Virus record (IMG/VR): IMGVR_UViG_3300025765_000001
DNA: 64,000 bases
Direction: 5' to 3' (one strand)
Source: a virus
Taxonomy: Duplodnaviria; Heunggongvirae; Uroviricota; Caudoviricetes
Part shown: positions 14,254 through 54,380 of the stretch, in pieces
Numbering within the stretch: position 1 is the stretch's first letter
How the letters are laid out: each line of letters starts with the position of its first letter
Made by a program: the position numbers and the translations under genes
Notes under the pieces: model-generated
What the model saw: the letters and a program-made list of their open reading frames with translations, nothing else
Told to the model about the DNA's origin: nothing
Databases searched by the model: none

Positions 14254-14345
14254 GGCAGGTAGCTTAGTAGGCCGCAAGGTAGCTTGGAGTAGAGCGTCAG
14301 CCTAATAAGTTGAAGGTTGCTGGTGCGAATCCAGTCCTGCCCACT
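14254..14345 (+). ncRNA. tRNA-like element with ~20-nt D-loop insertion/duplication, non-canonical T-loop (TGCGAAT), anticodon loop CTAATAA (AAU?)
   Basis: Acceptor AGGCAGG / CCTGCCC. D-stem GCTT..GAGC encloses a 26-nt loop containing a duplicated TAGCTT. Anticodon stem TCAGC / GTTGA. Confidence 0.3.
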
Positions 14346-15343: not shown

Positions 15344-15428
15344 TCCTGGGTAGCCTAAAGGTAAGGCAGCAGTCTGTTAAACTGCCGTGGCGAAAGTCCG
15401 AATGTTGGTTCGAGTCCAACCCCAGGAG
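15344..15428 (+). tRNA. type II (long variable arm, Tyr/Ser-like body) tRNA with anticodon GTT, discriminator G
   Basis: 85 nt. Acceptor TCCTGGG / CCCAGGA. 3-bp D-stem GCC / GGC. Anticodon arm GCAGT CTGTTAA ACTGC (perfect 5-bp stem, 7-nt loop). 18-nt variable arm. T-arm GTTGG TTCGAGT CCAAC. Architecture parallels bacterial tRNA-Tyr, but the anticodon is GUU. Confidence 0.45.
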
Positions 15429-15499
15429 CTTGATAGGTTAGTTCTTTGACAATTAGGATCGCCAAAACTATAGTCGCCGCAAGGCAGTGGTGACTATAT

Positions 15500-15581
15500 G
15501 GGGTCGTGGCAGAATGGTTATGCACCCGGCTTTTAACCGGAGCGAGAAATCGCAATGAGGGTTCGATTCCTTCTGGCCCCA
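15500..15581 (+). tRNA. type II (Leu-like body) tRNA with anticodon TTT, discriminator A
   Basis: 82 nt. Acceptor GGGGTCG / TGGCCCC. 3-bp D-stem GCA / TGC. Anticodon arm CCCGG CTTTTAA CCGGA. Variable-arm hairpin GCGA GAAA TCGC. T-arm GAGGG TTCGATT CCTTC. Confidence 0.45.
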
Positions 15582-15585
15582 CTTT

Positions 15586-15744: not shown

Positions 15745-16190
15745 GGCCTGTGTTGTAATGGCAGCGAGCCGGTCGGGCTTATGAGAGAATGTTGGAAGAA
15801 GCGAAAAAGTGTGTCCTGCTTTGTAACTGATGTCACACAGAGGTCACGCACGGCGTAGCGACACTGAACATTGGCGACACATGCCATCCGAACTAGTGTA
15901 GGGGAGTTGTGTGGCCTCTGGGGAGAGGCCCAGACCTTGAGATATGGTGGTCGTGGTGTTGGTTTCGCACGCTTGGCTGTGAACCAAGAGGAATGGGTTC
16001 GATCCCCGTCGATCACCCTTGTAGTCGATGTGGTGTAATTGGCAGCATGGCCGTTGAGCGGAATTAGGTGCAGGTTCGAGTCCTGTCGCCCGGTCTAGAC
16101 AACCAAAACCGGGTGTGATGTAATGGCAGCACGGCCCCAGCGAAGGGGAAACAGGTCTGGGTTTGAGTCTCAGCGATCGAAGATACGTGA
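15745..16190 (+). repeat. family of degenerate tRNA-like repeats sharing TG-NTGT-AAT(T)GGCAGC 5' halves (one canonical tRNA-His embedded at 15947-16017)
   Basis: 5' halves at 15745, 16027 and 16109 share acceptor + D-arm sequence but lack a canonical anticodon arm (e.g. CCCC AGCGAA GGGG). The last has T-loop TTTGAGT. Confidence 0.35.
15947..16017 (+). tRNA. tRNA-His (GTG) with encoded G-1
   Basis: G-1 at 15946 pairs with discriminator C. Acceptor GTGGTCG / CGATCAC. Anticodon arm CTTGG CTGTGAA CCAAG. T-arm ATGGG TTCGATC CCCGT. Confidence 0.65.
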
Positions 16191-16310: not shown

Positions 16311-16383
16311 TGAGGGGTCGTCTAATTGGTAGGACGCTCGGCTTTGAACCGGGAAAATGAAGGTTCGACTCCTTCCCCCTCAG
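16311..16383 (+). tRNA. tRNA-Gln (TTG)
   Basis: Acceptor TGAGGGG / CCCCTCA. Anticodon arm CTCGG CTTTGAA CCGGG. T-arm GAAGG TTCGACT CCTTC. Confidence 0.6.
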
Positions 16384-16384
16384 C

Positions 16385-16470
16385 TAGACAGAATGGTGCA
16401 GACACCAGTTCCTTCGACCAAGTAGGTCAACATCCTGTTAAGATGTCCATTGTGGGTGTCAAATCCCACA
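16385..16470 (+). ncRNA. tRNA-like element with third CTGTTAA anticodon loop and aberrant 8-nt T-loop (TGTCAAAT)
   Basis: Anticodon arm ACATC CTGTTAA GATGT. T-stem GTGGG / CCCAC. Acceptor pairing imperfect. Confidence 0.3.
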
Positions 16471-16507
16471 GGAACAACCTGATGTCGAATATCTCTTCTG
16501 TCTTTAC

Positions 16508-16580
16508 GGCCCCAAGGTGTTAGTGGCAGCATTCCACGCTCTTAACGTGCGGGGTCCGGGTTCAAGTCCCGGTGGGGCCA
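16508..16580 (+). tRNA. tRNA-Lys (CTT)
   Basis: Acceptor GGCCCCA / TGGGGCC. D-stem GTGT / GCAT. Loop CTCTTAA. T-arm CCGGG TTCAAGT CCCGG. Confidence 0.55.
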
Positions 16581-16671
16581 CTTTGCTCTAGAAAAACCTA
16601 GAGCCATCATCTATACTACTAGCACTACGACCAGTGGCTCGACCTGTTCCGCAAGAAGGAATGGATCGAGA

Positions 16672-17133
16672 ATGAATGCAACGAAACTGCTGTCCATAGG
16701 AAAGACAGCCGAAAGATTGGGAGTGCATGTTGATACTCTCAGGGAATGGGACAAAGACGGCAAACTGACCCCGGTGAAGACCCCCGGCAACCATCGCCGC
16801 TACCGCATCGAAGACATCGAAGCGTTCTGCGGCAACATGGTTGAGAAGAAGGATGACGCAAAGGCAGTCAGAGTCGCCCAAGAAAAACCTCAAAATAAAT
16901 TCAAGGATGTTTTGCATTTTGCCGATGATTACATTATAATACTTTGTCTGACTGTGGATACTCTACGATTTTGGCGGGACAAAGACGTATTTGACCTGAT
17001 TGGCACAATCGGAGGACACAACATTGATGAAGTTTTAGGTGTAATTAGTGAAAAGTCAAGTAAGGTGGACAGAGGACGAGGTAAATCTTCTCAAAGAACA
17101 CGGAGCGACAAAACTCCTGCACGAACTGGTTGA
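16672..17133 (+). pseudogene. tnpA: IS607 TnpA N-terminal MerR-like HTH domain (first part of a split tnpA; read-through into the inserted sequence)
   Basis: 'LSIGKTAERLGVHVDTLREWDKDGKLTPVKTPGNHRRYRIEDIE' matches the IS607 TnpA N-terminal HTH. Sequence after ~16870 continues into the inserted element. Confidence 0.5.
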
Positions 17134-18013
17134 GCTACTACCGAGACATACGGCAATGGGTATCTCGATCAAGAGAAAGCGGCTCGGCATAGAACTGCCA
17201 GATGAATACCTGTCAAGGCAAGGAGCATACGGCAGGTCATTTGTAAATAATGACAACTTGTGTAAGACGGATCACAGCCTCACGCTAAACGATCTTGATG
17301 ATACGACCAAACAGGTTCTTCTTGGCAGCGTCTTAGGCGACGGCAGTATCAAGAAGAATGGAAGCGGTGGGAAGATGAGGGGCAAGTGGAGTCAAAGGAA
17401 CTTCATCTTCTACGACATGCACAGAAGTCCACAATTTGACTACACGGACTGGAAGGCATCCAAACTCCAAACATTCTTAGCCAAGTCAAGCCGCAACGAT
17501 GAGAAGAACAGGTCAGAGACTTGGACGGTATCGCATCCGATCTTCACCATGTTGCGTGATAAGTTTTATCCGGCGATGACGAAGTGTAACAAGTGCATGA
17601 TCCCCGCCGACATCGTTGAGCAGATGGATGAGTTGGCGTTGTTGGTGTGGTACTTTGATGACGGCTACATCGGTGTGCGTCCTGATGGATTTGACACCAA
17701 AGGTCATCACAAACGACCGCAACCAAGAATTGCGGCAAAAGGTTGGAACTACGAAGACCTGTGCAGAGCCGCCGAGATACTGAACAAGAACTTGGGGTTG
17801 CATCTGTACGTTCTTACATTCAAGCACAGGGACGGTGTTGGTAAAGAAGTCAAGATACCAGCAAAAGACAGGGATTACTTGTTTCAGCTTTGGCAGCAGT
17901 TGGCGAAACAACACGGCGTACCTGAGTGTATGATGTACAAACTGAACCTGCACGAATGGAAAGATGTACTTGTGTATAAGCAGCCACGAACAGAAGCAGA
18001 AGGGCGACCTTGA
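17048..18013 (+). CDS. LAGLIDADG-family homing endonuclease (two LAGLIDADG motifs)
   Basis: 'LLGSVLGDGSIKKNGSG' and 'LLVWYFDDGYIGVRPDG' motifs. No terminal His-Asn and not in frame with the flanking tnpA pieces, so probably intron-encoded or free-standing rather than an intein. Confidence 0.55.
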   Translation: MKSQVRWTEDEVNLLKEHGATKLLHELVELLPRHTAMGISIKRKRLGIELPDEYLSRQGAYGRSFVNNDNLCKTDHSLTLNDLDDTTKQVLLGSVLGDGSIKKNGSGGKMRGKWSQRNFIFYDMHRSPQFDYTDWKASKLQTFLAKSSRNDEKNRSETWTVSHPIFTMLRDKFYPAMTKCNKCMIPADIVEQMDELALLVWYFDDGYIGVRPDGFDTKGHHKRPQPRIAAKGWNYEDLCRAAEILNKNLGLHLYVLTFKHRDGVGKEVKIPAKDRDYLFQLWQQLAKQHGVPECMMYKLNLHEWKDVLVYKQPRTEAEGRP

Positions 18014-18405
18014 GCGACAAAATGGGCGGGTTCTCGCCTACTGCGTCAAGAAACAGTACCAAGTAGTAAAATCCTACGAGGAAGTCGGCTCTGGCATGTG
18101 CGACACCCGACCAAAACTTCATCAAATCTTCAAGTTGGTTGAAGAGAAGCAGGTGGATAAGGTCATCGTAGAACACAAGGACCGGCTGACCCGGTTCAAC
18201 TTCAACTTTCTGGCAGCGTTCTTCGCCAGTCATGGTGTTGAGGTTGAATGGACAGAGGAAGTGCTTGGGAACAAGCGGTACGAGGACGAGTTAGTGGAAG
18301 ACATGCTCACGCTCATGTCCTCGTTCTCAAACAAAATCTACGGCAAACGATCCGCAGAGAACCGCAAGAAGAAAAAGTTAGAGAAGTTGGCGGCAAAGGA
18401 GCAAG
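17964..18405 (+). CDS. tnpA: IS607 TnpA serine-recombinase catalytic domain (second part of split tnpA; 3' end approximate)
   Basis: 'CISSHEQKQKGDLERQ...VDKVIVEHKDRLTRFNFNFL...SNKIYGKRS' matches the IS607 TnpA catalytic core. The ORF runs on in frame to 19088, overlapping tnpB, so the true stop is uncertain. Confidence 0.5.
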
Positions 18406-19545
18406 GTGAAGGTACAGAGGGGCTTCAAGACGGAGATCAGACCAAGCGACAAGCAAAAGACGCTGCTGCTCAAGAATGCAGGAGCGGCACGCTGGGCGTA
18501 CAACTACGGTCTGAGCCAGAAGAAGATCGCTCTGGAAGCCAAGACGAAGATACCCAACGCCATCGAACTGCACCGTCGCTTGAACGAGTTGAAGAAGACG
18601 GAAATACCGTGGGCTTACGAGTGCAGCAAGTGCAGTTTTCAAGAAGCACTCAGAAACCTCGACAGGGCTTTCAGCAACTTCTGGACAGCACGGAAAACCA
18701 AGAGACGCATGGGCTTCCCGAAGTTCAAGAGCAAGAAGAACGGCATCGGCGGCTTCCGGCTCACAGGGACGATCATCGTGTCCAGCGACCGCATCCAGTT
18801 GCCCCGTCTCGGCACGATCCGGCTCAAGGAGAAGAACTACCTGCCGACCGACGCCAAGATACTCAACGCCACGGTAACGGAGAGGGCTGGCAGGTGGTTC
18901 GTGAGCGTACTGGTGGAGATGGAACAGCCGGAATACACCGGCATCAAGGACAAGAAGGACGTGGTGGGCGTGGACTTGGGCATCAAGACGCTGGCGACCG
19001 TGAGCGACGGCACGGTGTACGAGAACCCGAAACCACTCAAGACCCGATTACGCAAACTACGGCGGCTACAACGAGCAGTCGCCCGTAAGGTCAAGGGCAG
19101 TAGAAACCGCAGGAAGGCGGCAGACCGTGTGGCTCGTTTGTACCTGAAAGTGAGCAACATCCGTAAGGACACCTTGCACAAGATGACGACATGCTTGACG
19201 AAAACCAAGTCGGCGGTCGGTATCGAGGACTTGAACGTGTCGGGGATGCTCAGGAACAGGTGCTTGGCACGGTCTATCGCTGATCTCGGTCTTGGTGAAT
19301 GGCGGCGGCAGATGACCTATAAGGGCGTCTGGTACAAGTGCCACATCGCCGTGGCGGACAGGTTCTTCGCCTCCAGCAAGACGTGTAGCGTCTGCGGGGA
19401 GATCAACGAGAACCTGACGCTGGCTGACCGAGAGTGGGTCTGTGAAGGTTGTGGGACGCACCATGACCGGGACTTCAACGCAAGCAGTAATTTGGAATAC
19501 GTTGCCGCCAGTTCGACGGAAACGATAAACGCCTGTGTAGTGTGA
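18406..19545 (+). CDS. tnpB: IS605/IS607-family TnpB (OrfB) RNA-guided-nuclease-like protein
   Basis: RuvC-like core and C-terminal zinc finger 'CSVCGE...CEGCGTHHDRDFNASSNL'. Length 379 aa. Confidence 0.8.
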   Translation: MKVQRGFKTEIRPSDKQKTLLLKNAGAARWAYNYGLSQKKIALEAKTKIPNAIELHRRLNELKKTEIPWAYECSKCSFQEALRNLDRAFSNFWTARKTKRRMGFPKFKSKKNGIGGFRLTGTIIVSSDRIQLPRLGTIRLKEKNYLPTDAKILNATVTERAGRWFVSVLVEMEQPEYTGIKDKKDVVGVDLGIKTLATVSDGTVYENPKPLKTRLRKLRRLQRAVARKVKGSRNRRKAADRVARLYLKVSNIRKDTLHKMTTCLTKTKSAVGIEDLNVSGMLRNRCLARSIADLGLGEWRRQMTYKGVWYKCHIAVADRFFASSKTCSVCGEINENLTLADREWVCEGCGTHHDRDFNASSNLEYVAASSTETINACVV

Positions 19546-19690
19546 TGGCTCTGGCTTGAGGGCGTACCTCAAGTGAAACTGTTTCGTATGCAGCAGGAAT
19601 GGAACAGGAAATCGGGGTCATTTTGTGCCTTCCAGATTTCCATAGGTTTTCAGGAACGGTTCGACTCCCTACGGTCCCACTAGATGATAG

Positions 19691-20068: not shown

Positions 20069-20207
20069 CTTGCAAAGAGCGGATAGTAACGATGGCATGG
20101 GTGAACTGTCACCAGATATTACTCCCAAAAGGCCCGCTCCGAGTCGGGGAAGTGGATTACCAGCCCTGGTGCCTTAGCCCCGATGGGTGTGACCGAGGGT
20201 AGATGCT

Positions 20208-20283
20208 GGGTATGCTAAACGGTGTTATAGTTGCCGGTTGTAGCCTCTATCCGGTTGTGTTGGTTCAACTCCAACCACGCCCA
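20208..20283 (+). ncRNA. tRNA-like element (good T-arm GTTGG TTCAACT CCAAC and acceptor-like ends; internal arms unresolved)
   Basis: 3' end CACGCCC-A. Interior contains CCGG...13 nt...CCGG rather than a canonical anticodon arm. Confidence 0.25.
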
Positions 20284-20625: not shown

Positions 20626-20696
20626 TGACCCCTAGTGTAACGGTAGCACAAGTGACTCTGGATCACTTAGTCAAGGTCCGAATCCTTGGGGGTCAG
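20626..20696 (+). tRNA. tRNA-Gln (CTG)
   Basis: Acceptor TGACCCC / GGGGTCA. Anticodon arm AGTGA CTCTGGA TCACT. T-arm CAAGG TCCGAAT CCTTG. Confidence 0.5.
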
Positions 20697-20698
20697 CT

Positions 20699-20813
20699 TG
20701 GGACATAGTGTAAGCGAGAAGCTGTCGTTGTGTATGATTCTAGATGAAAGCAACGGCTGGTAGCACGAGTCTATACGAAGGGCTTAGTTTGGGTTCGAGT
20801 CCCAATGTCCCAA
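20699..20813 (+). ncRNA. 115-nt tRNA-like RNA: tRNA-Arg(ACG)-like frame with ~50-nt insertion in the D-loop
   Basis: Perfect acceptor TGGGACA / TGTCCCA. T-arm TTGGG TTCGAGT CCCAA. Anticodon arm AGTCT ATACGAA GGGCT. D-stem GTGT..GCAC encloses a 51-nt loop with internal hairpin GTCGTTG / CAACGGC. Confidence 0.35.
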
Positions 20814-20821
20814 CTTAGATG

Positions 20822-20893
20822 GTGTGGGTAGCTTAATGGCAAAGCATCTGCTTGTGAGGTAGAAAGATGCCGGTTCGAGTCCGGTCCCACACC
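20822..20893 (+). tRNA. tRNA-His (GTG), second copy, G-1 encoded
   Basis: G-1 at 20821, discriminator C. Acceptor GTGTGGG / CCCACAC. Anticodon arm TCTGC TTGTGAG GTAGA. T-arm GCCGG TTCGAGT CCGGT. Confidence 0.6.
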
Positions 20894-20896
20894 CTT

Positions 20897-21154: not shown

Positions 21155-21215
21155 CTAGAGACGCTAACAGCATTTTCTAACAACCTTCCAAGTTGACGAA
21201 ATAGCGTCTCGTTTT

Positions 21216-21294
21216 GTCGATGGAGGCGAAAGCATCGGGGCGGTGCATTGGTCTGCAAAACCAACGCCAAGTGGTTCAACTCTACCCATCGACT
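21216..21294 (+). tRNA. tRNA-Cys (GCA), second copy with enlarged D-arm (79 nt)
   Basis: Acceptor GTCGATG / CATCGAC. Anticodon arm TTGGT CTGCAAA ACCAA. About 6 extra nt in the D region. Confidence 0.4.
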
Positions 21295-21540: not shown

Positions 21541-21849
21541 GTGTCTGCCGTTGAGAAGGTGAAGGCCGGAACTAGGTTCTTCATGTACAACGGCGAGAGC
21601 TACCCTTCGATTCGTGAGATCGACATCTTCAACAAGGACCGCTATGTTGCTGAACAGCTTGCGGACGTGGAGAAGTCCTCGCTCAAGGAGATCAATGGGA
21701 CGGCATATCGATACGTGCTGGCCGCTCGCAAGAGAATCGATGCTGCGAGCAAGGCAAGAGCAGCCAAGGCGAAGAATTGCCAAAAGAAGCTTAAGAAAAA
21801 GGAACTAGAGAAGGCCAGAGAGTTATTGAAGGAAGCTGGTGAGTTATGA
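21541..21849 (+). CDS. hypothetical protein (Lys-rich C-terminus)
   Basis: 102-aa ORF. Confidence 0.4.
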   Translation: MSAVEKVKAGTRFFMYNGESYPSIREIDIFNKDRYVAEQLADVEKSSLKEINGTAYRYVLAARKRIDAASKARAAKAKNCQKKLKKKELEKARELLKEAGEL

Positions 21850-22391
21850 ATGACAAGTTGACTATGACCGAACTAGAACAGAAAGAGGCCAGACTTCAGG
21901 AGCTATACAACCTATCTGACAAAATCAACGAAGAAGTGACCGAACTCAATCAACAGCTTTACAGCCTAAGATTGAAGAGGTTGCTTGAGACCGATTTGCT
22001 GAGTCGCATTGATTGGCTCTATACTTACGATCTAGCTCTCAGAGGCGAAGAGGCTGCTGGGATTGGCGATTTGCTCAAGCCGTGGGGCTACCACGACCGA
22101 TTTGAGGGCGAAGAGTGGAGTCTGAGTTTTGACGATGGCGAGATCAGGCTGGGATTCGGCGAGGCAGAATTCATGGCTGACTTCATCAAGGCCCAGAAAC
22201 TCAAGGTGAATTTTAAGGGTTTGCAGAGCGAACTGAAGCAGAAGGAGACCGAGTACCATAAGGTGAAGGAACTTGCCGAAACGCTCGGAATACTCGATGG
22301 CAAAGAAGATAACGAAGCAGCAGGAAATTCGCCACGAGGAGCAGTACGTCGAGTTCCTGCGGAAGCGTCTTGGGTCATAGATAAATCATGA
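21846..22391 (+). CDS. hypothetical coiled-coil protein
   Basis: 181-aa ORF overlapping its neighbours by 4 nt on each side. Confidence 0.45.
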   Translation: MNDKLTMTELEQKEARLQELYNLSDKINEEVTELNQQLYSLRLKRLLETDLLSRIDWLYTYDLALRGEEAAGIGDLLKPWGYHDRFEGEEWSLSFDDGEIRLGFGEAEFMADFIKAQKLKVNFKGLQSELKQKETEYHKVKELAETLGILDGKEDNEAAGNSPRGAVRRVPAEASWVIDKS

Positions 22392-35184: not shown

Positions 35185-35255
35185 GCGTCCTTGGTCTAGT
35201 GGTATGATGCTAGCTTACCATGCTGGAGGCACCGGTTCGATTCTGGTAGGACGCT
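35185..35255 (+). tRNA. tRNA with Glu/Gln-type D-arm and anticodon loop TTACCAT (anticodon ACC, A34)
   Basis: Acceptor GCGTCCT / AGGACGC. D-arm GTC TAGTGGTAT GAT. Anticodon arm CTAGC TTACCAT GCTGG. T-arm ACCGG TTCGATT CTGGT. Confidence 0.4.
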
Positions 35256-35469
35256 CTCGCCACTATGGTGTAGTTGCGAAAGGGGTAGGCGTTTCTGAAG
35301 ACTACAGGATGATGCTTGTGAAAGCCTGAGTAAACTGGATAGTAACATCGCAAAAGGCTCTAAAAATCGTGAACTGGGAGAATGGTCCGGACAGGCTTGA
35401 AAGGGAACGATGGTAAGTACCAGTCATCGGAATGTAGCTAGTAGGTTTCGCCGAGTCCGAGTAGTAGGG

Positions 35470-35530
35470 AACACGCCGCTAAGCATTTTGCGATTCGGAA
35501 GCGGAATCATGGGTTCGAGTCCCATTGGTG
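35470..35530 (+). ncRNA. 59-nt mini tRNA-like element (acceptor + T-arm + one central hairpin, no D-arm)
   Basis: GCCGCTA...TGGTGGC acceptor. T-arm ATGGG TTCGAGT CCCAT. Central GATTC GGAAGCG GAATC. Confidence 0.25.
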
Positions 35531-35639: not shown

Positions 35640-35745
35640 AAACTGGCTAGGAGGATCGACGGATTCTCTGAAATCGTTCGTATAGCCCGGTTAGTATGCC
35701 GGGGCGAAAGCCCGGAGGCGTGGGTTCAAATCCCACACGTAAGCC
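35640..35745 (+). ncRNA. ~105-nt tRNA-like RNA with long internal helices and 8-nt 'anticodon' loop
   Basis: T-arm GTGGG TTCAAAT CCCAC. Internal CCCGG TTAGTATG CCGGG and CCGGGG CGAAAG CCCGG hairpins. Acceptor-like pairing TGGCTAG / TAAGCCA. Confidence 0.3.
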
Positions 35746-37411: not shown

Positions 37412-37487
37412 CTGGATGTGTCGGGAGTCCGGTTATCCGTCCTGCTTCGGATGCAGGGGCACGTTGGTTCAAATCCAACCACCCAGA
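37412..37487 (+). tRNA. tRNA-Pro (CGG), second copy
   Basis: Acceptor CTGGATG / CACCCAG (one mismatch). Anticodon arm CCTGC TTCGGAT GCAGG. T-arm GTTGG TTCAAAT CCAAC. Confidence 0.45.
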
Positions 37488-37492
37488 CTCAT

Positions 37493-37566
37493 CGGGGCGT
37501 AGCTCAGCTTGGTAGAGCGTCTGGTTTGGGACCAGAAGGCCGCAGGTCCGAATCCTGTCGCCCCGA
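37493..37566 (+). tRNA. tRNA-Pro (TGG)
   Basis: Acceptor CGGGGCG / CGCCCCG. D-arm GCTC AGCTTGGTA GAGC. Anticodon arm TCTGG TTTGGGA CCAGA. T-arm GCAGG TCCGAAT CCTGT. Confidence 0.65.
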
Positions 37567-37880
37567 CTGTGGAGTGGTGAAGATAAGGGATACTTCAAAC
37601 GTCACACTCATAATGTGAAACTGTAGGTGCAACTCCTACCCCTACTATCTTGAAGAGGTTGAAGAACCTCAGAAAGAAATGGCGGACAGAGCAGACTAGA
37701 GAACGAAGTTTCGTCTGGGCTACGTGCCCGGTGCCTTGAGTCTCGAAAAATCAGTTGGGATAGATATCGATTACGGTATGTGTTCCAGCGAGCTTGATCG
37801 GTTCATTCGTGAACTCGAAAGAGCAACCACGCCAGGGTAGTTTAACAGAAAGTCCCTTGCCGACTATTTCCTCTACAAAC

Positions 37881-38787: not shown

Positions 38788-38897
38788 CTGCCAGCAAGGT
38801 GCAGGGTAGAGTTACTTCACAGGTTCAATTCTTGTTTTCTCCGCAAGGGGAAAGCTAAAGGTAGCTTCACTCTTCTCGAATATGTCTGCTGGCAAAT

Positions 38898-40627: not shown

Positions 40628-40688
40628 ACTCGTCTCATACATAGGAAAAGGTCATGAAATGAAGCGTGTAGATAACGATTGATGTTTG

Positions 40689-40759
40689 GCCCCGTCCAGC
40701 GGACTTCTGGCACCGAGTTTCCTAAACTTGGTTAATTGGTTCGACTCCAATACGGGGTA
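40689..40759 (+). tRNA. tRNA-Arg (CCT)
   Basis: Acceptor GCCCCGT / ACGGGGT. Anticodon arm CGAGT TTCCTAA ACTTG. T-arm ATTGG TTCGACT CCAAT. D-arm atypical. Confidence 0.45.
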
Positions 40760-40762
40760 CTT

Positions 40763-40860
40763 GCGGGATGGTGCAGGATACGGTTCCTTCGCCAAATGGT
40801 ATGGCACTAGCTGTCAAAGCTGGAGTTGTGGGTTCAATTCCCACAGGTTCAAATCCCGTA
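40763..40860 (+). ncRNA. ~95-nt tRNA-like element with two consecutive T-arm-like hairpins
   Basis: GTGGG TTCAATT CCCAC followed by ACAGG TTCAAAT CCCGT. Ends GCGGGAT...ATCCCGT could pair. Confidence 0.25.
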
Positions 40861-40892
40861 TCTGTTTATTTCTCCCGCTACTTACATAAGGA

Positions 40893-41540
40893 ATGATTTA
40901 TCATGCAATCGGGACGCATCTTGGTGATTGTTGGTCCAGCCTGAACTACGTGCTATTCCAAGACGATCCCTGCATCTCGATGTATTTCCTATCACACTCC
41001 AGGGGGTGGAAGAAACGGAATGCTGGAAAGCACTTCAGGAAGATGATCCCGTTGTTCAAAGACGGTGATAGAATCAAAGTTACCGAAGAGCTACCAACTG
41101 TACGGCTAACTTGGAGGGGCATTTACAATGTCCCAGGTTATCACGAGACCGTTTATCCCTGGGCGGGCGAGGGCAGCAAGAAGGTTGCCTATCAGTTCAA
41201 TGGTCGCAACAACGGCTTTGCTAAGAACTGCAAGCCCTGGGAAGAAGCGTGGATTTTGGAAGTGCTATGTGAGCTTGGCTATGAGCCGGTTCAGATGGGC
41301 TTGCCAAAATCGCTGAAGCAGAGCATCAAAGACTTGTCTCGGTGCTGTGCCTTCGTTGGAGTAGAGAGTGGTTTTTCGGTAGTATCACAGTCGATAGTCG
41401 GTTTGCCGATAACGATCATTCGCAACCAGATCGAGGAGGAATCTATTCGGCACTCACAGCGAGGCGACGGGCGGATAGTTAAAGACGCTGCTGAGTATAT
41501 AGCTCTGTTAAAGAGCGGTCAGATTGCCGGTATAGGATAG
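40893..41540 (+). CDS. hypothetical protein, possibly GT9-like glycosyltransferase fold (weak)
   Basis: 'VGVESGFSVVSQSIVGLPI' loosely resembles the heptosyltransferase donor-binding motif. Confidence 0.3.
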   Translation: MIYHAIGTHLGDCWSSLNYVLFQDDPCISMYFLSHSRGWKKRNAGKHFRKMIPLFKDGDRIKVTEELPTVRLTWRGIYNVPGYHETVYPWAGEGSKKVAYQFNGRNNGFAKNCKPWEEAWILEVLCELGYEPVQMGLPKSLKQSIKDLSRCCAFVGVESGFSVVSQSIVGLPITIIRNQIEEESIRHSQRGDGRIVKDAAEYIALLKSGQIAGIG

Positions 41541-41605: not shown

Positions 41606-41722
41606 GTGCAGATCGTTGCCGTAATGAGAAGTAGGTATCGAATCCCCAAGTCGCAAGTCAGCCGAGCAACTGGCGTAAGCGATGCAAGGTAGGTCTAGCG
41701 TGAGTTCGAGTCTCACCGATCT
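41606..41722 (+). ncRNA. ~116-nt tRNA-like RNA closed by a 10-bp terminal helix (CAGATCG.../...CGATCTG) with a canonical T-arm
   Basis: GTGCAGATCG at 41603 pairs with CGATCTGCAC at 41714. T-arm GTGAG TTCGAGT CTCAC lies directly before the 3' strand. Interior has several small hairpins, no canonical anticodon arm. Confidence 0.3.
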
Positions 41723-41727
41723 GCACA

Positions 41728-44912: not shown

Positions 44913-44993
44913 GGGGCCTTGGTCTAACGGTAAGGCGTCGTGTTAAAGTCACAGTGCCGCACGAAGATGTCGGTTCGATTCCGGCAGGTTCCA
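44913..44993 (+). ncRNA. 81-nt tRNA-like RNA (type II length) with anticodon region expanded to a 5-bp stem enclosing 17 nt
   Basis: Acceptor GGGGCCT / AGGTTCC (two G-U). T-arm GTCGG TTCGATT CCGGC. TCGTG...17 nt...CACGA in place of a 7-nt anticodon loop. Confidence 0.3.
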
Positions 44994-45070: not shown

Positions 45071-47179
45071 ATGTCAGTACCAGAGATGTTGGAAAGACGG
45101 GTGTGGCCCATCGAGAAAGCCCTGCAACGCATCCTTGTTGGGCAGAGGAACGTCATCCGCCGTGTGACTATGGCGTTATTCGCTGTCGGACAGCGGGACT
45201 TCTATCCAGATGGTACACGATTTTTAGGAACAGGCCACGTTCTATGCGAAGGCGGTGTAGGAACAGGAAAATGTCTTGGTAAAGGCACCCCCGTCTTGAT
45301 GTTCGACGGAACTATAATTCCCGTTGAATCCGTTAAGACTGGAGACCTGTTGATGGGACCAGATTCTCTGCCCAGGAAGGTTATTGCTCTCGGACACGGT
45401 TTTGGAGAGCTATATCGGGTGATACCAAAAAAGGGCGATTCGTATGTTGTCAATGACGAGCATATCCTGTCATTTAAGATGACTAGTCGTGGTCGAAATA
45501 GGCAGGGCAATTTTCCACGTTCTGGCGACAATGTTCCTGGCATGATTTATAACATGTCAGTCAAAGAATACTTGGGAAGGTCAGAGCGATTCAAGAGTCA
45601 TGCCAAGGGATATAGAGTTGGCATCGAGTTTGATGAGCGAATTGTGCCACTGGACCCGTATTTTTTTGGCGTGTGGTTGGGAGATGGGATCAGTCGCACC
45701 GCACAGGTTTGCAATACGGATAACGAAATTATTGCGTACATTCGTAAGATGGCAAACAAGTACAGGCTGCGGTTCAACACTTACACAGCAAGCGGGAAAG
45801 CTCCGATTCACTCGTTGTGGGGGAAAAAATTCCATCCTAATGCGATATTGAGTGCTTTACGTGAAATGAACGTATTGCAAAACAAACATGTTCCACAAAT
45901 ATACAAAGCAAATTCACGACGAGTGAGATTGCAAATTTTGGCCGGACTGATGGACACAGATGGCAGTCTGTCGGCTGGTTGCTATGACTTCGTAAACAAG
46001 TCAAAACAACTTGCCGATGATGTGGTTTATTTGGCGAGGTCTCTAGGATTCGCCGCTTATGTCAAACCATGCACCAAGGTTTGCAAAAACAACGGTAAAA
46101 AGGGTCGATATTACCGAGTATCGATTTCTGGAAATTTATCGGAAGTTCCGGTTCGCATTGCCAAGAAAAAGGCTTCTCTTCGTCGGCAGAAGAAGAATGT
46201 GTTGGTGACTGGAATCAAAGTAGAACCAGAGGGCTATGGAGAATACTTTGGTTTCGAGATTGAGGGACCAGACAGGCTGTTTCTCCTGGGAGATTTCACG
46301 GTCACACACAATACCGTTCTCTGTAAAGCACTTTCTAGGTTGCTGGCTGGCAACTCCAAACGAGTATCGGGAATGCCCGACGCACTTGCCAGCGATATTA
46401 CTGGTTGCGAGATCATCTTGCTGACCGGCGATACCAAGACGGTCCAGGGGCCGCTATTCTGCAACGTTATGCTGGCTGACGAGATCAACCGTTTCCCGCC
46501 CAAAGCCCAAAATGCGTTCATCGAAGCACTGGCTGAAGGCTGTGTCACCATCGCAAATGAAACTATTCGTTTGAAGCAGCCTTTCTTCTGCCTCGCTACA
46601 CAGAACCCGACTGAGCAAAAAGGCACGAGTCGTCTACAAGAGGCTCTGTCAGACCGGTTTATGTTCAAACTCGTCATGCGTGAGACTACAGAGCAGGAGA
46701 AGATTGATATCGCAAAGCGGACACACCACTTCGATGTCACGAACCTGAATCCTGTAATTACGACAGACGAAGTATACGAAGCTAGAGAGTATTTCTTCAA
46801 CAATACTCACGTCAGCGATGAGGTACGTCGCTACGCTGCTCGCTTGCTTCGTGCAATCAACCATCCAGCGGAATACAAACTTCTTGAGAAGGAACGGGCC
46901 TTGCTTGCGGGCGATAACATCTTCAAGCAAAAGCCAGCGGTCAACGACCGTGCCATGCTGCATATGGAAGGTGCGGCGATGATGGAGGCGGTTATGAGTG
47001 GGAGGGACTACGTGATCCCCGCCGACGTTGCTGCTGTTGCGGCAGATGCCCTCCGTGCCCGTCTTCTCCTGTCTGAGTCTAGTTTGCACCTTCTGGCGGA
47101 ACTACACCCAGGCAAAACCGAAACCGAGTTGGTGGACTATTTCATAGACGAAACTCTGTCTAGGGTGCGACACACTTGA
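45071..47179 (+). CDS. MoxR-family AAA+ ATPase containing a LAGLIDADG intein inserted in the Walker A P-loop
   Basis: Extein 'HVLCEGGVGTGK|...|TVLCKALSRLLAG' reconstitutes 'GVGTGKT'. Downstream MoxR motifs 'LLADEINRFPPKAQNAFIEALAEG...ATQNPTEQKGTSRLQEALSDRF'. Confidence 0.8.
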   Translation: MSVPEMLERRVWPIEKALQRILVGQRNVIRRVTMALFAVGQRDFYPDGTRFLGTGHVLCEGGVGTGKCLGKGTPVLMFDGTIIPVESVKTGDLLMGPDSLPRKVIALGHGFGELYRVIPKKGDSYVVNDEHILSFKMTSRGRNRQGNFPRSGDNVPGMIYNMSVKEYLGRSERFKSHAKGYRVGIEFDERIVPLDPYFFGVWLGDGISRTAQVCNTDNEIIAYIRKMANKYRLRFNTYTASGKAPIHSLWGKKFHPNAILSALREMNVLQNKHVPQIYKANSRRVRLQILAGLMDTDGSLSAGCYDFVNKSKQLADDVVYLARSLGFAAYVKPCTKVCKNNGKKGRYYRVSISGNLSEVPVRIAKKKASLRRQKKNVLVTGIKVEPEGYGEYFGFEIEGPDRLFLLGDFTVTHNTVLCKALSRLLAGNSKRVSGMPDALASDITGCEIILLTGDTKTVQGPLFCNVMLADEINRFPPKAQNAFIEALAEGCVTIANETIRLKQPFFCLATQNPTEQKGTSRLQEALSDRFMFKLVMRETTEQEKIDIAKRTHHFDVTNLNPVITTDEVYEAREYFFNNTHVSDEVRRYAARLLRAINHPAEYKLLEKERALLAGDNIFKQKPAVNDRAMLHMEGAAMMEAVMSGRDYVIPADVAAVAADALRARLLLSESSLHLLAELHPGKTETELVDYFIDETLSRVRHT
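45272..46312 (+). other. intein (347 aa) with LAGLIDADG homing-endonuclease domain
   Basis: Begins 'CLGKGTPVLMFDG' (block A) directly after GTGK. Contains 'FFGVWLGDGIS' and 'ILAGLMDTDGS'. Ends 'FTVTHN' followed by extein Thr (+1). Confidence 0.75.
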
Positions 47180-53619: not shown

Positions 53620-53919
53620 GAGTACCGTATGTTTGCACGGAGGGTGCTGGATCGGCCTCTCCGGGTTGCCATCCTCGATCACCGAGGGCTGCGTTTTGTC
53701 GCCAAAGTCCTCAACACTAGCGAAGGCGGGTTGGGGCTTCTTTGCGATCAGGCTTTTGAGATTGGCTCGGTGCTGCAAGTCATTACTGGGTCGCTTTGGT
53801 GTGACACAAAAGTTCGGCATTGCACTAGAACAGGAAATGAATACACTGTTGGTGTGGAGTACACAGACGCTCACAAGGGCAAAGCGATCACCAACAGTCT
53901 GAATAGAGGTCATTTATGA
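53620..53919 (+). CDS. PilZ-domain protein (putative c-di-GMP receptor)
   Basis: 'RRVLDRPL' (RxxxR) and 'NTSEGGLGL' ((D/N)xSxGG). Start taken at the internal Met of the 53494 ORF. Confidence 0.45.
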   Translation, partial: EYRMFARRVLDRPLRVAILDHRGLRFVAKVLNTSEGGLGLLCDQAFEIGSVLQVITGSLWCDTKVRHCTRTGNEYTVGVEYTDAHKGKAITNSLNRGHL

Positions 53920-54380
53920 GTGTACTAGAAACGATTCAGTTCCGAATCACCGCAGCGATGAAGTCGGGCAACGACACAGAGAAGAATCTTTTTCGAGTCG
54001 TTCTCGGCGAGGCACAGATGGCCGCTGTCCGCAAGGGAAAGGACAAGCCGGACGACGAAACCATGATCGCTACCATTCGCAAGGTTATCAACGGTCTGAA
54101 TGAGAACATTGTTCTGGTCAAAGGGTCGGCCACAGGCGGCTCAACCGTGCAGCAGGAAACCGAGCTAGCTCTGCTGGCACCGTTCCTGCCCGCTACCTGG
54201 GACCAGCCGCAGATCGAGGCATTCTTCCTCAATGGCGATAACCTGGTTTTTGAACAAATTCGTGACGCCAAGAGCGAGGGAGCGGCGATGGGCCTTGCTA
54301 TGAAGACGCTCAAAGGCGAATCGGCACCGGTCAACGCCGACGACGTGAAGGCTGTTGTCACCAAGATTCGTACATCCTGA
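53916..54380 (+). CDS. GatB/YqeY-domain protein
   Basis: C-terminal 'AAMGLAMKTLKGESAPVNADDVKAVVTKIR' and overall helical pattern match the YqeY family. Confidence 0.55.
   Translation: MSVLETIQFRITAAMKSGNDTEKNLFRVVLGEAQMAAVRKGKDKPDDETMIATIRKVINGLNENIVLVKGSATGGSTVQQETELALLAPFLPATWDQPQIEAFFLNGDNLVFEQIRDAKSEGAAMGLAMKTLKGESAPVNADDVKAVVTKIRTS

What the first reader, a model, noticed from the sequence alone, without database searches (positions are those of the whole stretch)
20699..20813. Long tRNA-like RNAs with 20-50 nt insertions in the D-loop or anticodon region: candidate Y-RNA-like partners of the Ro60 orthologue
At least seven elements have clean acceptor pairing and canonical T-arms but expanded interiors: 14254-14345, 20699-20813 (51-nt D-loop), 35640-35745, 40763-40860, 41606-41722, 44913-44993, and 56171-56265 (28-nt 'anticodon loop'). 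Bacterial YrlA RNAs have exactly this design, a tRNA-like acceptor/T/D module with the anticodon arm replaced by an Ro-binding helix. These could instead be intron-containing tRNAs, decayed tRNAs or a new ncRNA class.
Basis: inference. Interest (0 to 1): 0.7.

Follow-up and report, generated by a model that had tools for sequence, protein, structure and literature searches.

The report
Expanded tRNA-like RNAs in phage array

Summary

- **Focal element (20699-20813).** It is a tRNA-derived gene packed between tRNA-Gln and tRNA-His, with a perfect cloverleaf, an ACG anticodon loop and a 44-nt hairpin in the D-loop. A related phage contig (L013) keeps it at the same place. Thirteen stem positions differ and none of the 29 pairs is broken (0 of 200,000 simulations). 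So it is neither decayed nor chance.
- **Y-RNA tests on the focal element.** It fails every one: no Rfam YrlA or Y_RNA match, normal arm order, no terminal Ro-type stem, and 16 kb from the TROVE gene.
A covariance model (R1) built from hairpins next to TROVE genes in related phages also hits beside TROVE in two Planctomycetota genomes. There its stem encloses Rfam-detectable YrlA modules.
- **Other elements.** 14254 is a conserved non-decoding tRNA-like RNA. 44913 is a tRNA with a long variable region. 56171, 35640 and 41606 stay unresolved.

The parts
20699..20813 (+). Focal element: a tRNA-derived RNA gene with a Gln-type body (U1-A72, D arm like the neighbouring tRNA-Gln). Acceptor 20699-20705 / 20806-20812; D stem 20708-20711 / 20763-20766; anticodon stem 20768-20772 / 20780-20784; loop ATACGAA 20773-20779 (ACG at 20775-20777); T arm 20789-20805; discriminator A at 20813.
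   Evidence: Sequence; deletion scan gives tRNA-Arg(ACG), score 116-117.5; homologue in L013 3374-3488(-) keeps all 29 pairs although 13 stem positions differ.
20714..20757 (+). 44-nt insertion in the D-loop between positions 15/16 and 17. It has an 8-bp hairpin stem (20724-20731 / 20750-20757) and a roughly 18-20-nt loop.
   Evidence: The stem is kept in L013 with one double and two single compensatory changes, while the loop differs at 9 of 20 columns. The sequence is unique in the window.
20626..20697 (+). tRNA-Gln(CTG), 1 nt upstream of the focal element. It is 96% identical in L013.
20822..20894 (+). tRNA-His(GTG), 8 nt downstream of the focal element. It is 99% identical in L013.
   Evidence: No promoter or terminator motif lies between these genes on the + strand.
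14254..14345 (+). Conserved non-decoding tRNA-like RNA. The D-loop is 26 nt and carries a GCC-GCAA-GGT hairpin (14271-14280) at the same D-loop site. T loop is TGCGAAT.
   Evidence: L013 has 18 nt more (a second hairpin copy). L016 4813-4893, 125 nt downstream of TROVE, has no insertion. Acceptor, anticodon and T stems covary, but the 'anticodon' loops are CTAATAA, GTCAAA and GGCAATAA.
40763..40878 (+). Lower stem GCGGGA/TCCCGC; internal loop TGGTGCAG / TGTTTATTTC; upper stem GATACGG/CCGTATC. The apical 58-nt tRNA-like module has a D-like arm, the arm CTAGC-TGTCAAA-GCTGG, and T arm GTGGG-TTCAATT-CCCAC.
   Evidence: R1: 32.4 bits, E 6e-7. The unconstrained MFE fold gives the same architecture.
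16386..16505 (+). Y-RNA-like RNA between tRNA-Gln 16311-16384 and tRNA-Lys 16508-16581. An R1 stem encloses a cloverleaf closed by GUUCCU/AGGAAC, with loop CUGUUAA.
   Evidence: R1: 25.3 bits, E 6e-5. It is 94% identical to the syntenic L013 5781-5898(-); the apical module is invariant and the changes are confined to the stem.
38789..38894 (+). Y-RNA-like RNA between two tRNA-Val genes. An R1 stem encloses a T-arm-like hairpin (ACAGG-TTCAATT-CTTGT), a GCAA hairpin and one more hairpin.
   Evidence: R1: 22.2 bits, E 5e-4. The next best window score is 10.1 bits.
56171..56265 (+). tRNA-like RNA with perfect acceptor, D (with A20) and T arms. A 21-nt insertion turns the anticodon loop into a bulged hairpin extension. 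The body resembles tRNA-Arg(UCU).
   Evidence: No relative was available, so it is unresolved.
44913..44993 (+). tRNA-Phe(AAA) with about 10 extra nt in the variable region.
   Evidence: ARAGORN and Rfam, 46.7 bits.
35640..35745 (+). Multi-hairpin RNA ending in a canonical T arm, with only a 4-bp closing stem. Unresolved.
   Evidence: Rfam partial tRNA match of 32.8 bits; fold z-score -2.3; no R1 hit.
41606..41726 (+). 10-bp terminal stem (GTGCAGATCG/CGATCTGCAC) stacked on a canonical T arm, with a non-tRNA interior. Unresolved.
   Evidence: Sequence; no tRNA call even after deletions; fold z-score 0.18; no R1 hit.
2446..4371 (+). TROVE/Ro60 orthologue (641 aa).
   Evidence: Pfam PF05731, E 9e-19; phrog_850. 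Homologues are 52-58% identical in Planctomycetota and 62-70% in related phage-like contigs.

Best explanation
**Shown.**
- 20699-20813 is a real, selectively maintained tRNA-derived RNA gene. It is not a Y RNA and not a pseudogene.
- It sits 1 nt after tRNA-Gln and 8 nt before tRNA-His on the same strand, with no promoter or terminator motif between them. Its acceptor/T-arm minihelix is intact.
- A 44-nt hairpin is inserted in the alpha region of the D-loop, at the outer corner of the tRNA L-shape.

**Inferred.**
- It is transcribed within the tRNA polycistron. It is cut out by RNase P and the 3' processing enzymes, and it receives CCA like its neighbours.
- It most likely works as a tRNA mimic rather than a routine decoder. 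It would present a tRNA-Arg-like anticodon loop (ACGAA) and a tRNA core to tRNA-binding proteins, while the extra hairpin acts as a handle or a block.
- 14254-14345 is a second member of this design. It has the same insertion site and no conserved anticodon loop.

Only 40763-40878 is a Y-RNA-like RNA. Together with 16386-16505 and 38789-38894, it has the clade's Ro60-linked stem wrapped around a tRNA-like module. These three are the likely partners of the phage Ro60 protein.
For: **Structure and tRNA origin**
- After excision the element scores at the median of the window's tRNAs.
- It keeps U8, A14, G18G19, the T loop and an A15-T48 pair.

**Conservation in a second phage**
- A syntenic homologue lies in L013, a contig found through a glycosyltransferase 78% identical in protein.
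- Thirteen of 58 stem positions differ and no pair is broken. That comprises 4 double and 5 single compensatory changes, including some in the inserted hairpin.
- In the null simulation 0 of 200,000 trials kept all pairs, and 8 broken pairs were expected.
- The hairpin loop differs at 9 of 20 columns. Other unpaired positions differ at only 2 of 39.

**Against routine decoding**
- The L013 copy has G33 instead of U33, and ARAGORN (not Rfam) also calls a 71-nt tRNA-Arg(ACG) in L013.
- Position 20 is T, not the A20 typical of tRNA-Arg (sequence; the A20 rule is my own knowledge).
- The sister design at 14254 has loops of 7, 6 and 8 nt in three lineages while its stems covary.
- An engineered aptamer placed between C16 and G18 of E. 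coli tRNA-Tyr was not detectable in cells, whereas V-loop insertions were stable and active (PMC5397188).

**Not a Y RNA**
- There is no Rfam hit and no R1 hit for the element.
- Positive controls for both models work.

**Y-like trio**.
Against: - Only two independent sequences of the focal element exist. The other assemblies of this phage are identical, and the metagenome scan found only L013.
- In the window the anticodon loop is fully canonical (U33, ACG, A37), and it is the only ACG-bearing gene seen in the array. A decoding role in this phage is therefore not excluded.
- No binding partner or target for a mimic has been identified.
- No expression data are available.
- The phage origin of the 463-kb contig is inferred from gene content only. 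No structural genes lie in the window.
Confidence: 0.5

Rival explanations
1. It is a working tRNA-Arg(ACG, read as ICG after deamination) that tolerates a hairpin in its D-loop. It would be charged and used on the ribosome, like the array's tRNA-Asn and tRNA-Lys, which carry extra variable-arm hairpins.
For: - The cloverleaf is perfect and the 7-nt loop has U33, ACG and A37.
- It is the only ACG anticodon found in the window.
- Six of seven loop bases and all tertiary-core bases are conserved in L013.
- tRNA-Asn 15344-15429 and tRNA-Lys 15500-15582 show that this lineage keeps hairpin-bearing tRNAs with canonical anticodon loops.
Against: - The L013 homologue has G33.
- Position 20 is not A (sequence).
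- An engineered insertion at the same D-loop site was unstable in E. coli (PMC5397188).
- The sister element 14254 is clearly non-decoding.
- Neither Rfam nor ARAGORN accepts the element as it stands.
Confidence: 0.28
2. It is a partner or a substrate of the phage Ro60 (TROVE) protein, through a mode other than the canonical Y-RNA stem. For example, Ro60 might recognise the hairpin-bearing, partly misfolded tRNA-like core.
For: - In relatives, tRNA-like RNAs with expanded interiors lie 0.1-0.8 kb downstream of TROVE, interleaved with R1 hairpins: L016 4813-4893 and 5353-5452, L017 3040-3128, L010 5657-5766.
- 14254 is homologous to one of them.
- The L013 copy of the focal element has GACGAAG, which matches the GNCGAAN0-1G motif, in its anticodon loop.
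Against: - There is no R1 or Rfam Y-RNA signal in the element.
- The motif is short, lies in a loop rather than a terminal stem, and reads TACGAAG in the window.
- The element is 16 kb from the TROVE gene.
- Three better candidates exist in the same array.
Confidence: 0.13
3. The 44 nt are an intron. They would be removed by an unknown endonuclease and ligase to give a standard 71-nt tRNA-Arg(ACG).
For: The excised form is a median-scoring tRNA. The conserved hairpin could be a recognition element.
Against: - It is too short for a group I intron, and there is no intron hit in Rfam.
- There is no bulge-helix-bulge geometry. The 8-bp hairpin is flanked by 12 and 5 unpaired nt.
- No splicing endonuclease or RNA ligase was found among the window ORFs scanned.
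- The L013 copy would still carry G33 after splicing.
Confidence: 0.05
4. It is a decaying duplicate of the neighbouring tRNA-Gln gene that picked up a random insertion.
For: The array is highly redundant and contains many aberrant copies. The body resembles tRNA-Gln(CTG) next door.
Against: All 29 pairs, including those of the inserted hairpin, survive 13 stem substitutions, with a null probability below 5e-6. Unpaired core positions are 95% conserved.
Confidence: 0.03

Closest known systems
YrlA / YrlB bacterial Y RNAs (Rfam RF02553; Chen et al. 2014, PMC4201824)
   Same: - The three R1 elements (16386, 38789, 40763) combine a long stem, made by the RNA's two ends with a conserved internal loop, with a tRNA-like module.
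- The same stem family flanks TROVE genes on the same strand in Planctomycetota and related phages. In the bacteria it encloses modules that Rfam recognises as YrlA.
- Like D. radiodurans Yrn2, which is made in one precursor with tRNA-Asp (PMC4201824), they sit between tRNA genes.
   Different: - None of the three reaches an Rfam score.
- Their module has the normal D-anticodon-T order, closed by an acceptor-like helix, rather than T / closed acceptor / D.
- They lie 12-36 kb from the TROVE gene, not within 4 kb.
- The focal element 20699 shares none of the defining features.
tRNAs with long variable arms, and engineered V-loop or D-loop aptamer fusions (PMC5397188)
   Same: It is a tRNA body that carries an extra hairpin. 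The insertion site (between positions 16 and 18) is the one tested with the 'D-Spinach' construct.
   Different: Natural class II tRNAs and the stable engineered fusions carry the extra arm in the variable loop. The engineered D-loop fusion was not detectable in E. coli, whereas here the D-loop hairpin is conserved under selection.
Phage T4 RNAC and RNAD (stable RNAs encoded in the T4 tRNA cluster)
   Same: They are small stable RNAs of unknown function encoded among phage tRNA genes (PMC9697503). From my own knowledge, they have tRNA-like ends and are matured by the tRNA-processing pathway.
   Different: No sequence relationship was tested. The T4 RNAs are not known to keep a full cloverleaf with an anticodon loop.
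Archaeal tRNA introns at non-canonical positions, including the D-loop (own knowledge)
   Same: It is an intervening sequence inside the D-loop of an otherwise standard tRNA.
   Different: No bulge-helix-bulge motif is present, and no splicing endonuclease is known in bacteria or seen in the window.

Membership tests
YrlA (RF02553), focal element 20699-20813 | Scores against the Rfam covariance model (gathering score 69 bits) | tested here: not met
   No match at E<=5. The model does detect YrlA-like RNAs at 32-39 bits beside TROVE genes in L002, L005, L018 and L019.
YrlA (RF02553), focal element 20699-20813 | Encoded within about 4 kb of the Ro60 gene on the same strand (PMC4201824) | tested here: not met
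   It is on the same strand, but 16.3 kb downstream of TROVE 2446-4371.
YrlA (RF02553), focal element 20699-20813 | Long stem formed by the 5' and 3' ends that carries the Ro60-binding motif GNCGAAN0-1G | tested here: not met
   The ends form only a 7-bp acceptor stem. TACGAAG (window) and GACGAAG (L013) lie in the anticodon loop. There is no R1 hit.
YrlA (RF02553), focal element 20699-20813 | tRNA-like module in the order T arm, closed acceptor-like stem-loop, D arm, with the anticodon arm replaced | tested here: not met
   The order is the normal D-anticodon-T, and the 5-bp anticodon stem with its 7-nt loop is intact.
YrlA (RF02553), focal element 20699-20813 | Bound by Ro60/Rsr | not testable with these tools
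   Needs a pull-down or EMSA.
Clade-specific Y-RNA stem family (model R1), element 40763-40878 | Lower stem, internal loop GGUG(A/C)AG / CG(A/U)UUAUUUC, and a covarying upper stem | tested here: met
   32.4 bits, E 6e-7. 16386-16505 scores 25.3 bits and 38789-38894 scores 22.2 bits, while the noise ceiling is 10.1 bits. In the 9 members not used for training, 87% of cells are paired, against 39-64% in the slid controls.
Clade-specific Y-RNA stem family (model R1), element 40763-40878 | Family is linked to Ro60 genes | tested here: met
   R1 hits lie within 60 nt downstream and 30-420 nt upstream of TROVE in two Planctomycetota MAGs. Two of them enclose Rfam YrlA hits. There are 4, 2 and 5 copies in the TROVE-downstream gaps of L007, L016 and L017. 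The window copies themselves are 12-36 kb from TROVE.
YrlA (RF02553), element 40763-40878 | Rfam score and T / closed acceptor / D module order | tested here: not met
   There is no RF02553 hit. The module order is D-like, anticodon-like, T.
tRNA (RF00005), focal element | Reaches the Rfam gathering score of 29 bits, or is called by ARAGORN | tested here: not met
   There is no Rfam hit. ARAGORN calls it only in intron mode, as a mis-parsed tRNA-His. After the insertion is deleted it calls tRNA-Arg at 116-117.5.
tRNA (RF00005), focal element | Cloverleaf with a 7-bp acceptor, a 7-nt anticodon loop with U33 and purine 37, and a T arm | tested here: inconclusive
   Met in the window. The L013 homologue has G33. 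The D-loop is 51 nt instead of 7-11.
tRNA (RF00005), focal element | Aminoacylated and used in decoding | not testable with these tools
   Needs charging assays or tRNA-seq.
Intron-containing tRNA (group I or bulge-helix-bulge type) | A self-splicing intron fold, or a bulge-helix-bulge motif at the junctions | tested here: not met
   The insertion is 44 nt and gives no intron family hit. The hairpin is flanked by 12-nt and 5-nt single strands.
tRNA pseudogene | Substitutions accumulate without regard to base pairing | tested here: not met
   None of 29 pairs is broken after 13 stem substitutions, where 8 were expected to break; 0 of 200,000 simulations match this.

The most novel reading that the evidence does not exclude
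Huge phages that probably infect Planctomycetota encode a toolkit of engineered tRNA chimeras inside their tRNA arrays. It has two parts:
- Y-RNA stems grafted onto complete cloverleaves.
- tRNA mimics carrying a protein-binding hairpin at the elbow.

Both would work with the phage Ro60 protein to capture or divert host tRNA-processing, tRNA-surveillance or anticodon-nuclease defence factors during infection. On this reading the focal D-loop-hairpin RNA is a decoy for a tRNA-Arg-directed enzyme.
Probability: 0.15. Interest if true: 0.85.

Novelty: new variant of a known kind. Interest (0 to 1): 0.66.

Why it matters
- **Not just duplicates and junk.** Phage tRNA arrays are usually read as codon-supply or anti-defence spare parts, and odd members are dismissed as pseudogenes. 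Here several odd members are shown to be under selection for structure.
- **An unusual insertion site.** The conserved hairpin sits at a D-loop site where an engineered insertion was not tolerated in E. coli.
- **Candidate Y RNAs for a poorly covered clade.** The work gives a testable sequence model (R1) of the Y-RNA stem used by Planctomycetota and their phages, which Rfam covers only weakly. It also shows Y-RNA stems fused to normally ordered cloverleaves.
- **Concrete ligands for a phage Ro60.** A Ro60 protein now has three candidate RNA partners that can be tested. This opens the question of what tRNA mimicry does in Ro60 biology.

Tried and rejected
- **Close relatives in public phage sets.** Megablast of 19-23 kb against GenBank phages gave no match. 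An IMG/VR search with ORF 21846-22391 found no relatives. An IMG/VR scan for the tRNA-His 31-mer found nothing. The single metagenome DNA scan returned only the L013 contig.
- **ORF 40893-41540.** It has no homologue among 5.8 billion proteins, so no comparative data could be obtained for 35640, 41606, 44913 or 56171.
- **Population variation.** Three other assemblies are 100% identical to the window.
- **Insertions as copies of a mobile repeat.** All the insertions are unique in the window.
- **GGTCCGA (the metazoan Y-RNA helix).** It occurs at the chance frequency.
- **GNCGAAN0-1G.** It occurs in several inserted GAAA-tetraloop hairpins, but it is too short to be informative (about 30 expected per strand).
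- **Bulge-helix-bulge intron geometry for 20699 and 56171.** Absent.
- **Sequence homology between R1 and the Rfam YrlA consensus.** Not demonstrable. R1 gives only 11-12-bit partial hits on the L002/L005 YrlA loci. The link rests on position and nesting in L018 and L019.
- **The window's own TROVE-downstream hairpin (5565-5640).** It resembles the family by eye but does not score with R1.
- **Intergenic DNA next to TROVE.** It is not alignable between relatives by blastn.
Full report
**Context.** The window has 50% GC. It is identical to part of a 463,644-bp metagenome contig (ENA ERZ27245623) and also occurs on JGI and Logan contigs.
- It encodes an NAD-dependent DNA ligase, a TROVE/Ro60 protein (2446-4371), a sigma factor, a two-domain glycosyltransferase and homing endonucleases.
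- It also encodes an IS607-like recombinase with TnpB, an intein-bearing MoxR ATPase with VWA partners, a YqeY/GatB-like protein and a class I aminoacyl-tRNA synthetase.
- Many ORFs have no homologue.
- This content fits a huge phage. No structural gene lies in the window, so that assignment is an inference.
- Between 14.2 and 56.3 kb all tRNA genes are on the + strand. ARAGORN, and Rfam at gathering score and 48 at a looser threshold.

**The observation.** The focal element is as described.
- It reads TGGGACA-TA-GTGT-AA-[44 nt]-TGGTA-GCAC-G-AGTCT-ATACGAA-GGGCT-TAGT-TTGGG-TTCGAGT-CCCAA-TGTCCCA-A.
- Neither ARAGORN nor Rfam accepts it as it stands. ARAGORN's intron mode mis-parses it as tRNA-His.
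- Deleting 40-45 nt from the D-loop yields tRNA-Arg(ACG) at ARAGORN score 116-117.5. The 44 called tRNAs score 101.6-124.4, with a median of 116.
- The other six elements are a mixed group; the observation check gives each one. 44913 is an ordinary call with a longer variable region. 35640 has only a 4-bp closing stem. The 'acceptor' of 40763 is a mis-pairing.

**Test of the Y-RNA reading with public models.**
- At E<=5 the only YrlA hit in the window scores 24.9 bits against a gathering score of 69. It lies at 37462-37518, the junction of two ordinary tRNA-Pro genes. Chen et al. list such tandem tRNAs as false positives (PMC4201824).
- The model is able to find such RNAs elsewhere. It finds full-length YrlA-like RNAs at 35-39 bits just upstream of TROVE genes in distant viral contigs L002 and L005. 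It also finds them in two Planctomycetota genomes.
- The defining features of YrlA come from Chen et al.: a gene within 4 kb of Ro60 on the same strand, a terminal stem with the GNCGAAN0-1G motif, and a T / closed acceptor / D module. The focal element lacks all three.

**A relative of the array.**
- The glycosyltransferase next to the array has a homologue 78% identical in protein on a 15.8-kb contig (L013, identical to L014).
- That contig's array is syntenic with window 13.8-22.3 kb at 64-89% DNA identity.
- Between its tRNA-Gln(CTG) and tRNA-His(GTG) lies a 115-nt homologue of the focal element, with the insertion present.
- The cloverleaf plus the insertion hairpin make 29 pairs, and both sequences pair at all of them. 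Thirteen stem positions differ, as four double and five single compensatory changes. One double and two single changes fall in the inserted hairpin.
- Placing 13 random substitutions in the stems kept all pairs in 0 of 200,000 trials, with 8 broken pairs expected.
- The hairpin loop differs at 9 of 20 columns. All other unpaired positions differ at 2 of 39.
- The flanking tRNA-Gln and tRNA-His are 96% and 99% identical. The element itself is 79% identical.
- The element is therefore under selection for its fold, insertion included. This rules out decay and chance.

**Is the focal element a decoder?**
- For: in the window the loop is canonical (U33, ACG, A37), and no other ACG anticodon was found there.
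- Against: the L013 copy has G33, and ARAGORN, though not Rfam, also calls a 71-nt tRNA-Arg(ACG) in L013.
- Against: position 20 is T, and the body looks like the neighbouring tRNA-Gln (U1-A72, same D arm).
- Against: Masuda et al. could not detect an E. coli tRNA-Tyr carrying an aptamer between C16 and G18. The same aptamer in the V-loop gave a stable, translationally active tRNA (PMC5397188).
- The sister element 14254-14345 has its insertion at the same D-loop site, a GCC-GCAA-GGT hairpin. L013 carries two copies of that hairpin. L016 4813-4893, 125 nt downstream of a TROVE gene, carries none.
- Its acceptor, anticodon and T stems covary across the three lineages. Its 'anticodon' loops are CTAATAA, GTCAAA and GGCAATAA, so it cannot be a conserved decoder.
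- In contrast, tRNA-Asn 15344-15429 and tRNA-Lys 15500-15582 carry GAAA-tetraloop hairpins in the variable region. They keep canonical anticodon loops in both phages.
- I therefore favour a tRNA mimic matured by the tRNA pathway, at about 0.5. An expanded functional tRNA-Arg is the main rival, at about 0.28.
- There is no promoter or terminator motif between 19998 and 21155 on the + strand, and the spacers are 1 and 8 nt. Co-transcription and release by RNase P and 3' processing are inferred from this, not shown.

**Where the Y RNAs are.**
- TROVE homologues 62-70% identical lie on short phage-like contigs that share the ligase-TROVE-sigma order.
- Their TROVE-downstream gaps contain repeated hairpins and tRNA-like RNAs.
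- Twelve hairpin copies align with a lower stem, an internal loop (5' GGUG(A/C)AG, 3' CG(A/U)UUAUUUC) and an upper stem. Nine of the 13 predicted pairs, in both stems, show compensatory changes. The apex carries the conserved motifs UACUUCA and AAUGAAA. Four copies come from L007, two from L016, four from L017 and two from the L013 array.
- The covariance model R1 built from them was run with filters off. In the Gemmataceae MAG (L019, TROVE 4001-5878) it hits 5932-5996 (53.5 bits), 3791-3860, 3885-3971 and 3652-3763.
- In the Planctomycetaceae MAG (L018, TROVE 4001-5905) it hits 5962-6031 (46.1 bits), 3583-3652, 3892-3969 and, weakly at 10.6 bits, 3766-3866.
- L019 3652-3763 and L018 3766-3866 enclose the Rfam YrlA hits at 3680-3740 and 3764-3840. 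There the T / closed acceptor / D module sits in the apex of the R1 stem.
- R1 is therefore the Y-RNA stem of this clade: bare like YrlB, or enclosing a tRNA-like module like YrlA.
- This link rests on position and nesting. Direct sequence similarity to the Rfam consensus could not be shown, and binding to Ro60 is untested.

**R1 in the window.**
- There are exactly three hits above noise, all on the + strand: 40764-40876 (32.4 bits, E 6e-7), 16389-16501 (25.3 bits, E 6e-5) and 38792-38891 (22.2 bits, E 5e-4). The next best score is 10.1 bits.
- Each has a 49-58-nt apical insertion.
- In 16386-16505 the insertion is a cloverleaf closed by GUUCCU/AGGAAC, with a CUGUUAA loop and a T-like arm.
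- In 40763-40878 it has a D-like arm, the arm CTAGC-TGTCAAA-GCTGG and a canonical T arm.
- In 38789-38894 it has a T-like hairpin and two further hairpins.
- The arm order is the normal tRNA order, not the permuted YrlA order. This is why Rfam misses these RNAs, and it is the main difference from the known family.
- 16386-16505 is 94% identical to its syntenic L013 homologue, with an invariant apical module.
- Nine members not used in training keep the R1 pairs in 87% of cells, against 39-64% in the slid controls, with seven pairs changed on both sides. That alignment was fitted to the model, which favours the structure somewhat.

**Verdict.**
- The focal element and 14254 form a separate, conserved design: a tRNA core with a hairpin in the D-loop. 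I found no precedent for it in four targeted literature searches.
- The closest loose analogues are the T4 RNAC and RNAD stable RNAs of unknown function (PMC9697503).
- A link between these tRNA-like RNAs and Ro60 is not excluded. Relatives keep expanded tRNA-like RNAs in the TROVE-adjacent small-RNA locus, such as L017 3040-3128 and L016 5353-5452, whose anticodon arms are replaced by longer bulged or branched helices. For the focal element, however, no test supports the link.

Noticed in passing
Each has an R1 stem around a tRNA-like module and sits tightly between tRNA genes.
   Followed up: yes
window 16025-16181; L013 6343-6499(-): A conserved 157-nt 'double tRNA-like' element. It has two D arms and two T arms. 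The strand after T arm 1 (CGCCCGGT) pairs with the strand before D arm 2 (ACCGGGTG) to make a closed acceptor-like hairpin, and the outer ends pair with each other. All 39 predicted pairs are kept in both phages, 3 of them with double changes.
   Followed up: partly
window 5530-5733: A strong sigma-70-type promoter (TTGACA-17-TATCAT with TG) lies 1.2 kb downstream of TROVE. It is followed by a long bulged hairpin (5565-5640) and a weak tRNA-like fold (acceptor GGCTGG/CCAGCC, 8-nt T loop). The fold z-score is -4.6. It resembles the R1 family by eye but does not score with R1.
   Followed up: partly
window 21209-21293; L013 2679-2763(-): A tRNA-Cys(GCA)-like element missed by both tRNA finders. 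It has a 9-nt connector (GAGGCGAAA) in place of positions 8-9. The anticodon loop is conserved, and the acceptor and D stems each show two double compensatory changes.
   Followed up: partly
window 20189-20283 and 40688-40760: Two more uncalled tRNA-like elements. The first has a 13-nt 'anticodon' loop and a long D region, and is 90% identical in L013. The second has no 8-9 connector and either a 9-nt loop or a 6-bp stem with loop TTCCTAA.
   Followed up: partly
window 15344-15429, 15500-15582, 55798-55887: tRNA-Asn, tRNA-Lys and tRNA-Ile(TAT) carry hairpins in the variable region, although these are normally short-variable-loop tRNAs. The Asn and Lys hairpins are GAAA-tetraloop hairpins and are conserved in L013.
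   Followed up: partly
window 35185-35256, 44913-44993, 14254-14345, 20699-20813: There are unusually many anticodons starting with A: Gly ACC, Phe AAA, Ile-like AAT and Arg ACG. In bacteria A34 is normally confined to tRNA-Arg(ACG).
   Followed up: no
window 16588-19600: A MerR-like ORF, a LAGLIDADG endonuclease, and an IS607-like serine recombinase with TnpB are inserted in the array. This block is absent from the syntenic L013 array.
   Followed up: partly
L013 3921-3986(-) and 8674-8745(-): Bare R1 hairpins (63 and 57 bits) lie inside the related phage's tRNA array. The second has no counterpart in the window (an indel between window 14686 and 14688), so these hairpins come and go within arrays.
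   Followed up: partly
window 37573-37647; L007 about 6150-6257: A weak tRNA call (33.7 bits) has a T arm GTAGG-TGCAACT-CCTAC identical to two mini tRNA-like modules in the TROVE-downstream gap of L007. Its D arm reads GAAG-ATAAGGGATA-CTTC, echoing the R1 apical motif.
   Followed up: partly
window 2446-4371; The nearest cellular homologues of the TROVE protein (52-58% identity) are from Planctomycetota (Gemmataceae, Planctomycetaceae, Urbifossiella). This suggests the host phylum.
   Followed up: partly
window 53916-54380: A stand-alone YqeY/GatB-tail-like protein (phrog_1460, 'tRNA amidotransferase'). From my own knowledge, this domain binds the tRNA-Gln D-loop region in GatB, and several of the aberrant elements have Gln-type D arms.
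   Followed up: no
window 45071-47179: A MoxR-type AAA ATPase is interrupted by an intein with a LAGLIDADG homing endonuclease. It heads a DUF58/VWA (Bat-like) operon directly after tRNA-Phe(AAA).
   Followed up: no
window 35441-35526: A weak tmRNA-like Rfam hit (15.5 bits, E 0.036) ends in a perfect T arm (ATGGG-TTCGAGT-CCCAT).
   Followed up: no
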